64,000 nt of DNA from the IMG/VR virus record IMGVR_UViG_3300031867_000032, positions 17,496-81,495 of that record; one strand, 5' to 3'. The notes beneath the pieces were generated by a model. That model searched no databases and was not told where the DNA came from. It saw only the letters and a list, made by a program, of their open reading frames with translations. Shown piece after piece: positions 436 to 63,712 of this stretch; positions within the stretch are counted from its first letter, which is position 1, and each line of letters starts with the position of its first letter. The position numbers were made by a program, and so were the translations under genes. Source of the DNA: a virus. Taxonomy: Duplodnaviria > Caudoviricetes.

Positions 436-3400
436 TTGAAATATTCCAATACTATTGAATATAATATTAAAACTAGTTTAGATTCTAAAGGTTTAACTCA
501 GTTAAGATCTGAGTTACAAAGTTTAGAATTAAAACTACAAAATATGGGTAATAAAGGTTTATTAGATGAAAAAACTTTTGTAGATGCCCGCAATCAAATT
601 CAAGGTTTAGGACAGGCTTTAAGTGATGCCTTTAATCCTTCTCTTGGAATGTTAGATTTATCCAAGTTAAACCAAGAACTTAAAAATAATGATGTAACAG
701 CCCAAGGATTAAAAACTGCTTTTACTTCTCTTGGAGCAGAAGGTCAAGTTGCTTTTAATAATTTAGTTGGTGAATTAGGTAAACTTGATACTGGTATTTT
801 AAGAACAAATTCCCAAATAGATAAGTTATTTACTACTTTTAGCAATACTTTTCGTTGGGGACTAGTATCTAGTTTCTTTAGTCAATTTATGAATGCAATT
901 CATAGTTCTGTAGATTATGTAAAAGAACTTGATGATTCACTAACTCAGATTATGCTTGTTACAGATTATAATCGTGATTCAATGAATGAATTTGCAAGAT
1001 CTGCTAACGAAGCAGCTAAAGCTGTTAGTATGACAACTACAGGTATGACTAATGCTTCATTAATTTTTGCTCAGCAAGGTTATGATCTTGGGCAATCTCA
1101 AGAATTAGCTACATTATCTGCTAAAGTGGCTAATGCTTCTCAGCAAGATACTGCTACTACTTCAGATCAGATTACAGCATATATGAATGCTTATGGTCTT
1201 GAAAATAGTATTGGTGAACTTACACAAGCAATGGATAACTGAGCATTAATTGCAAATATTTCTGCAGCAGATGTAGGTGAACTTGCACAAGCATCACAGC
1301 GAGCAGCTTCAATGGCAAACGCTGTAGGTGTTAGTGGTGAGCAACTTGCATCACAGATTGCTACGATTGAGTCAGTAACACGAGAAGCCCCAGAACAAAT
1401 TGGTAATGGTCTTAAAACTCTTTATGCTCGTTTCTCAGATATTGCTTCTGGAAAAGAAGATGAAGATGGTTTCACTCTTGGTAAAGTTACTTCAGAGTTA
1501 AATAAGATTGGTGTTCAAGTTCTTGATGAAATGGGTCAAATTCGTGATGTTGGCGATATCATGGAAGACCTTATGGTTATTTGAGATGATCTTGACCAGA
1601 CAAGCAAAGTAGCCGCATCTCAGGCTTTAGCTGGTAAATATCAAGTTAATCGTTTTATGGCTTTAATGGATAATTCTGATATGTATGAAGAGTATAAAGG
1701 TGCAACTGGAGCTAATGCGGCTGGTACTCTTGATATAATGAGTGAAGAATATGCTCAGTCTATTGAAGGACGAAGTGCTAAATTACAAGCTTCTTTAGAA
1801 GGATTATTTAGTACAATATTTAATACTGATGATATTTATCCTTGAATGGATGCCGCACAAGGAGCTATAGATTTATTACAACAATTTTTTGATGCTCTTG
1901 GTGGAGGACAAACTGTTCTTTTAGGTATTGGTAGTTTATTAATGCAAATATTTAGTAAAAATATGGCACAAGAAATTAATAATGTCGCAACTAATAGAGC
2001 AGTTCAACAACAAAAACTTGAAAATTTACAAAATTCTCAAGCTACGTTAACAACTTTGGGTGCGGCTAATCCTAATCCAAATGATGCTAATTCACAGAAT
2101 ATTTTAAATTTTGCTCAATATATGCAAGCCAATGCTAAGAATTTTAATGCAGAACAAATGGATCAAGCTAATTCTATTTTACAAGAGTTAGTTCAAAATA
2201 GTAATGCGGCTACAATGGCCGCAGATAAATTAAAAGAAAGCTTATCTGTTATTGGAATTGGTATTACAGCAACAACAGGTGAAAGTATTTTAGCTCCTTT
2301 CTTAGATAGTGAAGGAGCAGTAAATGCAACTTTATTATCAGAAGCACTTCAAAATATGTCTCAAAGTGAAGTTGCTGAAATGTTTTCTCATATACAAGAA
2401 GATATTAAACCGGCAAGAGAAGGCTTATTAGAATTTAATAAAGCTTTGCAAAATTATCAGCAAGAATTAAGAAATGCAAATAGCACCGATGATAGTTGAA
2501 GTCAAAGTCTTGCAAAATTACAAGCGGCACTAGATAATTTAGATGGTAAAATAGATCCTAGTACATATGAACGTTATGAACAAGCAGTTAAAGATATTGT
2601 AGAAGTAACTGAAAATGCAGGGGATCAAACAGCAGAAACTACTGCTGAAGTGGCTAAACTTGCAGATGGATTAGAAAAAGTTGCAGCAAAAGATTTAACT
2701 AATTTAAATCAATTAAATAATGATGCTTTTCAAGCTAAAAATACTCAAATGGCAGCAAAAGATTCCAATAAAGTTGCTGGAGCATTTCAAGAAGGTATGG
2801 GATCTCAAGCTCATATTCAAGAAATTTTAGATACCTTTAATGCAGTTCAACAATTAACTTTTGCTTGACAAGCATTTCAAAATCTTGGTAGTCTTTGAGC
2901 TAATGAAGATTTATCCACTGGAGAAAAAGTTCTTCAGACTATAATGAATCTTACAATGGCTATGCCGCAATTAATTGACGCTATAGACACTTTAAAAAGT
3001 GGAGGCTTAGCACAATCATTTCAAGAACTAAATGATGCTTTATCTAATATTCAAGCAGGAAATATAGATTTTTCTTCTGATGGAAGAATGGTAGAAATTA
3101 ACGAAGAATTAAATTCTTTATTAGAAAAAAGAACTACTATTAATGATAAGATTAGTAAAGCACAGCAAGAAATTTATAATAGCACTAAAAAAGTAGCACA
3201 AGCTGAAAGTGAAAGCGGAAAAAATGCTATGACAGGGGCTCAACTAGCATTTAAAAAACTTTTAGCAAAAAAGACGGAAAAGGAACAAAATGAACTTATT
3301 TCCATATTAGAAAAAGAACAAATAGCCAATGAAGCAGCTATTACAACAGCAGAAACTACAAGAAGTGCTATTGGAAAAATAATAACTGCTGAGCTAGTTA

Positions 3401-62734: not shown

Positions 62735-63712
62735 CTAGAACTTGAAATTAGATGCGGCAGTTGGTGAAGAAGTAGTTGTAGTTCCACCTGCAAAAGGTAG
62801 ATCATTATCTACACTCTTAGTTGCAGATGCAGGAAAACCACTCTGACCCGTAGAAGAACTATTACGAGCTTCCGCACGTGCTTTGGCCTCACCTTTTTGT
62901 ACCTCACGATTCTGTAGACCCTGCTTAAACTCAGCTACAGTGATTGTAGATTCATCATCCCAAGGATAAGGCTCAGGAGAACATCCATCCATTTGCCACA
63001 TACGAAGAGTACGAGTTGTATACTCAACCTGTGGAGCTCCCCACGCAGTTTCTACTTGACGCTCAATCTTCTGAGTTGAAGATACAATCTTACCCCAAAC
63101 ATAAACTAGATAAGGAGTATTAATTGAAATATCAAGACTTTCAAAATACTTAATACCACCTGCATCAGTTAGAGAATAAGTTACAGGAATAAGATCACCA
63201 CGGAAATTAAATACATAACCACTAATATTCATATAATCATTTCCGTCTTCAACTTCAACTAGATTTGTCCCAGTAATAAGCATATCGGTTTCAAAGTTAT
63301 TACGCTTATCACGGAAACCATCATTTGCATAATGAGTAAATCCACCACGAATTTGCTTAGATTCGACCATGTTACCATCACGGCCCATAAAATCATTTAC
63401 CTCAACATCACCTTGGATACGAAGTTTAGTTGCTTTATCTTTACCATCCTTCTCCCAAGTAGCACCACCATCAATAAGAGCTTTTAGAATCGTATAAGTC
63501 TCATTCTCTTTTCCGCTCTTCCAGAAAGGTACAACATAAGTATAACGAACACTGACAATATTAATCCCATCTTCGTCCGTTGCAATATTTACAGTACCAT
63601 TAATATACTCCTGACCAGGATTCTTGCTATTTGGACCTGCTACATTTGGAAAGAGACTAAAATTATAAACATAACCCTCTACGTATACAACATTTTTCCA
63701 ATTATCACGCAT
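62735..63712 (-). CDS. Single-stranded DNA-binding-like protein, 325 aa
   Basis: Two OB-like halves, flexible tail with DLPF and KF end, next to AAA ATPase. Confidence 0.6.
   Translation of the reverse strand: MRDNWKNVVYVEGYVYNFSLFPNVAGPNSKNPGQEYINGTVNIATDEDGINIVSVRYTYVVPFWKSGKENETYTILKALIDGGATWEKDGKDKATKLRIQGDVEVNDFMGRDGNMVESKQIRGGFTHYANDGFRDKRNNFETDMLITGTNLVEVEDGNDYMNISGYVFNFRGDLIPVTYSLTDAGGIKYFESLDISINTPYLVYVWGKIVSSTQKIERQVETAWGAPQVEYTTRTLRMWQMDGCSPEPYPWDDESTITVAEFKQGLQNREVQKGEAKARAEARNSSSTGQSGFPASATKSVDNDLPFAGGTTTTSSPTAASNFKF

What the first reader, a model, noticed from the sequence alone, without database searches (positions are those of the whole stretch)
436..63712. TGA-to-Trp recoding stratified by gene class: candidate translational early/late switch
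Seen: TGA encodes Trp. The duplicated Hint domains have GD-TGG at 5809 aligned with GD-TGA at 6244, TGA sits in Trp motifs (GH25 DVSHW, GGTW, RuvC TGWAV), and every gene end checked is TAA/TAG. By hand count, dnaE (20 Trp), nrdD (9), SSB-like (7), dnaB (5), dut (4), primase (2) and AAA (2) use TGG for all of about 49 Trp codons. The tape measure gene has about 27 TGA versus 7 TGG and the endolysin about 14 versus 6. Established: stop-recoded gut phages with recoded codons enriched in structural and lysis genes are known. Inference: AT mutational bias alone cannot give 0/49 in one arm, so early genes seem selected to translate while RF2 still terminates at UGA, with late genes gated until the phage switches the code. 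No tRNA-Trp(TCA) or release factor lies in this window.
Basis: partly seen in the sequence, partly recalled or inferred. Interest (0 to 1): 0.9.

Follow-up and report, generated by a model that had tools for sequence, protein, structure and literature searches.

The report
Rumen phage reading UGA as tryptophan
This gut-type phage writes most tryptophans with the stop codon UGA but keeps UGA out of its DNA-replication genes and its most abundant capsid genes; the replication-versus-late split is already published, and the pattern looks more like a cost of reading UGA than like a deliberate lock on late genes.

Summary
Observation confirmed. DnaE is 0/107 across six recoded genomes. Borges et al. 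(10.1101/2021.08.26.457843) already report this split for TGA-recoded Agate phages.

The 'late gate' is not shown. Late-gene TGA use (0.80) and the endolysin (0.70) do not exceed the A-ending baseline (0.84-0.86). Major capsid (0/48) and head-cement (0/22) genes avoid TGA across 21 recoded relatives, while RuvC, RecJ and Gmk on the 'early' arm carry it. Selection is visible only as avoidance, in early-essential and high-copy genes.

The contig is about 57% complete and holds no UCA tRNA, release factor or TrpRS. Four close relatives carry a UCA tRNA whose variable arm copies the Trp CCA anticodon loop. In published E. coli-lysate data 13/13 such tRNAs suppress UGA, versus 2/13 single-arm ones (P=2e-5). 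The scan noted this tRNA, and capsid avoidance, earlier on other DNA. The host and the timing of the switch were not tested.

The parts
436..9792 (+). Tape measure protein (3118 aa) with two Hint domains; 27 TGA/7 TGG
   Evidence: Pfam PhageMin_Tail and PT-HINT x2; counts
9839..40199 (+). Tail, baseplate and fibre gene block, TGA near the mutational baseline (e.g. 16885-23352 30/8; 9917-16327 19/3); function inferred from position, no family hits
33544..35118 (+). 524-aa late gene, TGA-free (0/1), with G-ending codon bias like high-copy virion proteins
41626..41982 (+). Holin (Hol44-like), 1 TGA/0 TGG; TGG-only in one recoded relative
41985..43514 (+). GH25 endolysin with PG-binding domain; 14 TGA/6 TGG, first TGA at codon 11; not enriched over baseline (17.1 expected)
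43556..47268 (-). Distal minus-arm unit (RuvC 44181-44675 3/0, dUTPase 0/4, two homing endonucleases 5/0 and 2/0): 21 TGA/11 TGG although behind a consensus host-type promoter
47283..47311 (-). 12/12 sigmaA-type promoter with extended -10; three more perfect ones start at 54824, 55916 and 61284
   Evidence: consensus match only
47820..49733 (-). NrdD, 0/9 (1/35 over four genomes)
50047..50631 (-). Guanylate kinase, 1 TGA (codon 158)/3 TGG
50940..54764 (-). DnaE, 0/20 (0/107 over six recoded genomes, 80 expected)
56177..57973 (-). RecJ, 1 TGA at codon 216 (TGG in two relatives)/8 TGG; 10/44 over six genomes
58148..60739 (-). Primase (0/2) and DnaB helicase (0/5; 0/34 over six genomes)
61329..61510 (-). 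Two tandem serine tRNAs: tRNA-Ser(AGA) 61422-61510 and an atypical tRNA-Ser(GCT) about 61329-61419 missed by ARAGORN and Rfam; neither reads UGA
   Evidence: the same pair is called in relatives
61720..63712 (-). Sak4-like annealase (0/2) and SSB-like YorF protein (0/7); 0/14 and 0/29 over six genomes

Best explanation
An SPbeta-like, Agate-type rumen phage that infects a standard-code Firmicute and supplies its own UGA-reading tRNA-Trp. UGA costs yield wherever read-through competes with RF2. Selection therefore removes it completely from genes needed before the tRNA has accumulated (DnaE, DnaB, SSB, Sak4, NrdD) and from proteins needed in hundreds of copies (major capsid, head cement, tail tube). 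It removes it partly from intermediate genes (protease, portal, RecJ, dut) and leaves it at AT-mutation equilibrium in low-copy late genes. Late genes do depend on the code change as a consequence, and read-through must get very high (at least 0.93 per codon for 10% yield of a 30-TGA gene). No signal shows the TGAs were selected as locks. The likely decoder, in the missing 43% of the genome, is the two-arm tRNA of its closest relatives, charged by host TrpRS. Shown: code, counts, conservation, tRNA in relatives. Inferred: host code, timing, cost, and the decoder of this particular phage.
For: 0/49 vs 35 expected. Conservation over six genomes. Gradient along one operon in 21 recoded relatives, TGA fraction vs A-ending baseline: regulator-like 0.80/0.87, Zn-finger 0.81/0.83, TerL 0.67/0.81, portal 0.58/0.77, protease 0.39/0.72, cement 0/0.47, capsid 0/0.41. 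Standard-code and amber-code relatives share the same genes. UCA tRNA in G001, G003 (intron-split), G005 and G018:C57, the last on one contig with TerL 93% identical. No RF or TrpRS in five relatives. Near-identical tRNAs suppress UGA in E. coli lysate without added synthetase. Yield arithmetic.
Against: Host not identified. The UCA tRNA is not in this contig, and none was found in recoded relatives G004 (100% by CheckV, no end repeats) and G010. Relatives are not independent samples. Capsid-gene avoidance is partly expected from a general G-ending preference. A gate needs only one TGA, so lack of enrichment cannot exclude it.
Confidence: 0.65

Rival explanations
1. Adaptive gate (first reader; Borges model): TGAs in structural and lysis genes are kept by selection to block early or premature expression until the phage switches the code.
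For: 41 of 68 genes carry TGA; the endolysin's first TGA is codon 11. RuvC has TGA in 6/6 heavily recoded genomes. Some TGA-rich genes sit behind host-type promoters, so they could be transcribed early and blocked in translation. A PHROG 'sigma factor' gene at the head of the late operon has TGA in every recoded relative examined, and is the only conserved core gene with TGA in lightly recoded G014.
Against: No enrichment over baseline (164 vs 174.5 expected; endolysin 14 vs 17.1). Sites swap TGA and TGG between relatives. G014 has the suppressor but a TGA-free endolysin match, TerL, tape measure match and RuvC. TerL has TGA in 28 of 29 loci where the sigma-like gene does, so that gene is not singled out. 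Its sigma identity was not confirmed by fold or Pfam.
Confidence: 0.22
2. The host already reads UGA as Trp (code 4, no RF2), and TGG use is ordinary codon bias tied to expression.
For: Walled or not, code-4 gut bacteria exist (Eggerthellaceae, PMC13462651). Capsid-type genes are both TGG-only and G-ending rich. G004 and G010 are recoded with no detectable UCA tRNA.
Against: DnaE and DnaB have ordinary A-ending use (0.75, 0.84) yet 0/141 TGA, whereas code-4 genomes use TGA for 80-90% of Trp (10.1101/2022.06.29.495998). Close relatives use code 11 with TGA stops, or code 15. Endolysin homologues carry Clostridial ChW repeats, and promoters and genes are SPbeta/Firmicutes-like.
Confidence: 0.06
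3. The switch needs a phage RF2 inhibitor or a host-tRNA modifier rather than, or besides, a suppressor tRNA.
For: Genes with 27-67 TGA need 0.92-0.97 read-through per codon for 10% yield. Two recoded relatives lack a detectable suppressor. Many small early genes of G001 have no Pfam family.
Against: No candidate found: no RF-1 or TrpRS family hit in six genomes. Capsid avoidance suggests competition persists late. Host shut-off of RF2 synthesis could also raise read-through.
Confidence: 0.07

Closest known systems
TGA-recoded Agate phages (Borges et al., 10.1101/2021.08.26.457843)
   Same: TGA=Trp; gut Firmicutes-type phage of about 130-145 kb (a 141,347-bp contig encodes identical capsid and SSB proteins); TGA in structural and lysis genes, not in replication genes; relatives in codes 11, 4 and 15; suppressor tRNA without RF or TrpRS; homing endonucleases TGA-rich.
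   Different: The preprint text read (parts 1-4 of 6) reports neither capsid-gene avoidance nor the second anticodon-like arm. It compares gene families with each other; against an A-ending baseline the lysis genes here are not enriched.
Block-recoded crAss-like phages (Yutin 2021, PMC7886860; Mgcod, 10.1101/2022.06.29.495998)
   Same: Early genes readable in both codes, late genes recoded; 'soft switch' model.
   Different: Bacteroidetes hosts and a different virion family. Here the split is gene by gene and does not follow strand cleanly.
Jade phages with a code-change module (tRNA + TrpRS + RF1)
   Same: TGA=Trp with a phage UCA tRNA.
   Different: No TrpRS or RF here or in five relatives. 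Jade-type single-arm tRNAs need their own TrpRS in E. coli lysate (10.1101/2025.10.30.685624), whereas two-arm tRNAs do not.
phAss-1 / 'Phassvirus' group (PMC10607447) and SPbeta-like siphoviruses
   Same: TerL 43% identical to phAss-1; YonB capsid, YomU tube, YonD, YorF families.
   Different: phAss-1 recodes TAG to Gln; SPbeta uses code 11.

Membership tests
Stop-codon-recoded phages infecting standard-code hosts (code 4 type) | Coding density rises by more than 10% under code 4 | tested here: met
   54% to 94%
Stop-codon-recoded phages infecting standard-code hosts (code 4 type) | In-frame TGA aligns with Trp in homologues | tested here: met
   W 114/279, G 9
Stop-codon-recoded phages infecting standard-code hosts (code 4 type) | Replication genes free of TGA, structural and lysis genes recoded | tested here: met
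   0/49 vs 164/41, with exceptions in both directions
Stop-codon-recoded phages infecting standard-code hosts (code 4 type) | Host uses code 11 and has RF2 | tested here: inconclusive
   No host found. MAG bins holding two-arm tRNAs have prfB, but these look like co-binned phage contigs (six capsid matches in G018)
Stop-codon-recoded phages infecting standard-code hosts (code 4 type) | Phage-encoded UCA suppressor tRNA | tested here: inconclusive
   Absent from this 57%-complete contig; present in four close relatives, not found in two
Agate clade | TerL falls in the Agate clade of the published tree | not testable with these tools
   No Agate reference sequences held. Indirect only: the Agate reference's tRNA (tRNAUCA-10) is nearly identical to that of a relative with 59% capsid identity
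Agate clade | Genome of about 127-150 kb, Firmicutes-type, mixed codes among relatives | tested here: met
Jade-type code-change module | Phage TrpRS and RF1 beside the suppressor tRNA | tested here: not met
   None in five relatives, two at least 90% complete, nor in this partial contig
tRNA-Sec (ARAGORN's label for the relatives' UCA tRNA) | 8-bp acceptor stem and long D-stem | tested here: not met
   7-bp acceptor, about 4-bp D-stem, G73, mostly A1-U72; the 13 library UCA tRNAs analysed by mass spectrometry all inserted Trp (which 13 was not checked)
Sigma factor (regulator-like gene upstream of the window) | Sigma region 2/4 fold | tested here: inconclusive
   PHROG 5767 in 40/40 homologues; weak GerE and Sigma70_r4 neighbours; no clear Pfam or fold match

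The most novel reading that the evidence does not exclude
This phage changes the code with one RNA and no protein: a tRNA with a UCA decoding arm and a second, CCA-loop arm that lets the host's TrpRS charge it. A TGA-bearing late-transcription regulator may make the whole late programme wait for that tRNA, leaving high-copy capsid genes free to use TGG. I found no paper describing the two-arm design. The probability is for 'this phage has the tRNA and the arm is the charging determinant'; adding the master-gate part drops it to about 0.1.
Probability: 0.35. Interest if true: 0.8.

Novelty: new member of a known kind. Interest (0 to 1): 0.38.

Why it matters
As an example of early/late recoding it adds little to Borges et al. 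Two results are useful. (1) Against a per-gene mutational baseline, selection shows up only as avoidance of UGA, graded from low-copy to high-copy genes along one operon. That weakens the 'recoding evolved as a lysis timer' argument and makes it testable by synonymous swaps. (2) The open question of how phages without their own synthetase charge an opal suppressor has a concrete candidate in the close relatives: a two-arm tRNA whose presence predicts activity in already published data. If the arm is a synthetase handle, it is a new tRNA identity principle with uses in genetic-code engineering.

Tried and rejected
TAG recoding: coverage only 60%. TGA=Gly: 9/279 columns. TGA as a true stop in this contig: no convincing case. 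Hidden UCA tRNA in the contig: ARAGORN at relaxed thresholds, Rfam and a custom two-arm model found only tRNA-Ser. Codon context after TGA follows the background. Host search: endolysin scan of bacterial genomes empty. The two-arm pattern in genomes returned mostly ordinary tRNA-Sec genes with a similar loop, plus phage-like contigs in rumen or gut MAGs; so a TCCAAAA loop alone is not diagnostic, and my 17-sequence alignment was selected for that loop, so its loop conservation is by construction. The 141-kb contig of the same or a nearly identical phage could not be read. Fold searches gave only generic helical-hairpin matches. Master-gate test against TerL was uninformative.

Full report
What it is. 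The window is bases 17,496-81,495 of an 81.5-kb linear viral contig, estimated 57% complete. Gene families are SPbeta-like: YonB capsid, YomU tube, YonD, YorF. TerL is 43% identical to Enterococcus, Geobacillus and phAss-1 phages.

The code. Reading TGA through raises ORF coverage from 54% to 94%; reading TAG through gives 60%. With TGA masked, aligned positions in standard-code and amber-code relatives are Trp in 114 of 279 columns, Tyr 20, Gly 9; TGG columns give Trp in 179 of 293. The Hint-domain pair and the GH25 and RuvC motifs are as described. No TGA in the contig behaves as a gene end.

The split. Using each gene's own A-ending fraction at Lys/Glu/Gln codons as the baseline, 35 TGA are expected (P about 1e-29). 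The window's plus arm has 164/41. Across six recoded genomes DnaE is 0/107, DnaB 0/34, SSB 0/29, Sak4 0/14, and NrdD 1/35 in four. The avoidance is real and conserved, and AT bias does not explain it.

Where the early/late reading fails. First, the minus arm is mixed. RecJ has 1/8 here and 10/44 across genomes (vs DnaE, P=1e-5), Gmk 1/3, RuvC 3/0. The unit 43556-47268 is 21/11 despite a perfect host-type promoter. Second, late genes are not enriched: 164 observed vs 174.5 expected, endolysin 14 vs 17.1, and sites swap freely between relatives. Third, upstream of the window the portal, protease, cement, capsid and tube genes are 0/14. In 21 recoded relatives the TGA fraction falls along one operon from 0.80 (regulator-like gene) through 0.67 (TerL), 0.58 (portal) and 0.39 (protease) to 0/22 (cement) and 0/48 (capsid), where the baseline still predicts about 0.4-0.5. 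This order follows the usual copy numbers of these proteins (own knowledge). Relatives share ancestry, so these counts are not independent.

How it most likely works. Inference: the host stops at UGA, so replisome genes needed at once must be readable in both codes. A phage tRNA then accumulates and competes with RF2. Genes with 27-30 TGA need at least 0.92-0.93 read-through per codon for 10% full-length product, so suppression becomes strong. It stays costly enough to keep UGA out of the most abundant proteins. Late genes depend on the switch, but that may be a by-product of neutral TGG-to-TGA drift. A gate needs only one TGA, so gating is not excluded.

The decoder. This contig has no UCA tRNA, RF or TrpRS; the region that holds the tRNA cluster in G001 is missing from it. 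The closest relatives have one: G001 (84% nucleotide identity over 39 kb), G005, G003 (split by a group I-like intron in the anticodon) and G018:C57 (TerL 93%). All four have a 7-bp acceptor stem, G73, a UCA arm and a long variable arm whose loop copies the Trp CCA anticodon loop. In 17 such genes the outer two pairs of that arm covary (10 and 4 two-sided changes), while the inner pair is often open; that set was selected for the loop. An unselected test comes from the suppressor library of 10.1101/2025.10.30.685624. Of its UCA tRNAs, 13/13 with the arm gave more than 25,000 units of UGA-sfGFP in E. coli lysate (background 5,403, wild type 69,124), against 2/13 without (Fisher P=2e-5; five doubtful entries left out; my classification by eye; sequences related). 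tRNAUCA-4 (27,497) differs from the G001 and G018 genes at 5 and 2 bases. I saw no mention of the arm in the passages read, and literature searches found no description. That the arm is what TrpRS recognises is inference. Five relatives lack RF and TrpRS. G004 and G010 are recoded with no detectable UCA tRNA, which is unexplained.

A possible master gate. A 364-aa gene at contig 902-1996 (8 TGA/1 TGG; PHROG 'sigma factor') heads the late operon behind a conserved host-type promoter. It carries TGA in all recoded relatives. In G014, a complete genome with the two-arm tRNA and only 33 TGA/410 TGG, it is the only conserved core gene with one. But TerL is nearly as consistent, and the sigma fold was not confirmed. 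This is a weak lead.

Host. Not identified. ChW repeats in endolysin homologues, extended -10 promoters and a parS site point to Clostridia or other Firmicutes. Code-4 gut bacteria exist (PMC13462651), but strict TGA avoidance in genes with ordinary codon use, and close code-11 relatives, argue against such a host.

Comparison and verdict. [quoted passage not shown] Yutin et al. and Mgcod report the same for crAss-like phages. The finding is a correct observation of a known kind; Agate membership is likely but could not be tested by tree. The additions are the baseline test against adaptive gating, the abundance gradient, and the activity link for the two-arm tRNA. I saw that tRNA and the capsid avoidance before consulting earlier notes; the scan had recorded both on other DNA.

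Noticed in passing
window 61422-61510 (-) and 61329-61419 (-): tRNA-Ser with anticodon AGA (A34, unusual in bacteria; TCT is the commonest Ser codon, 657 uses) followed by a tRNA-Ser(GCT) with a non-canonical T-loop that ARAGORN and Rfam miss; the pair recurs in relatives.
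   Followed up: partly
window 5527-6381 (+): Two tandem Hint domains inside the tape measure protein, each starting CFVAG and ending HNK, so probably self-cleaving rather than splicing.
   Followed up: no
L001:184-199: Single perfect parS palindrome near the contig start; the first 830 bases have no match in the relatives compared.
   Followed up: partly
whole contig: TGCGG and CCGCA are the two most over-represented 5-mers (120 vs 75 and 137 vs 96 expected); unexplained.
   Followed up: partly
G003:C1 about 115143-115436 (L158): Two-arm UCA tRNA interrupted in the anticodon by a roughly 170-nt group I-like intron, which hides it from tRNA finders.
   Followed up: partly
G014 (L371-L377) and G012 (L378-L384): Lightly recoded relatives with the two-arm tRNA (33/410 and 124/334 TGA/TGG): possible early stages of recoding, with TGA mostly in variable tail genes.
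   Followed up: partly
G004 (L140-L147), G010 (L181-L187): Clearly TGA-recoded but no UCA tRNA, RF or TrpRS detected.
   Followed up: partly
supplement of 10.1101/2025.10.30.685624: Several amber suppressors (e.g. tRNACUA-135, -147, -148) have a variable arm with a CTCTGA loop resembling the Gln CUG anticodon loop, suggesting the same design for TAG recoding.
   Followed up: no
L390 (also L090): Close relative (capsid 80% identical) with no in-frame TGA in the head genes examined: the code differs over short distances, or it is lightly recoded.
   Followed up: partly
window 55926-56177 (-): 83-codon ORF between recJ and the GmrSD_N gene with TGA at codon 42 and directly before its TAG; no homologue found, so its reading is undecided.
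   Followed up: partly
G001:C1 55-95 kb (L135-L137): The region missing from this contig holds RNA ligase, TROVE, SpoU methylase and metallophosphoesterase genes near the tRNA cluster (possible tRNA repair), almost TGA-free (20/211).
   Followed up: no
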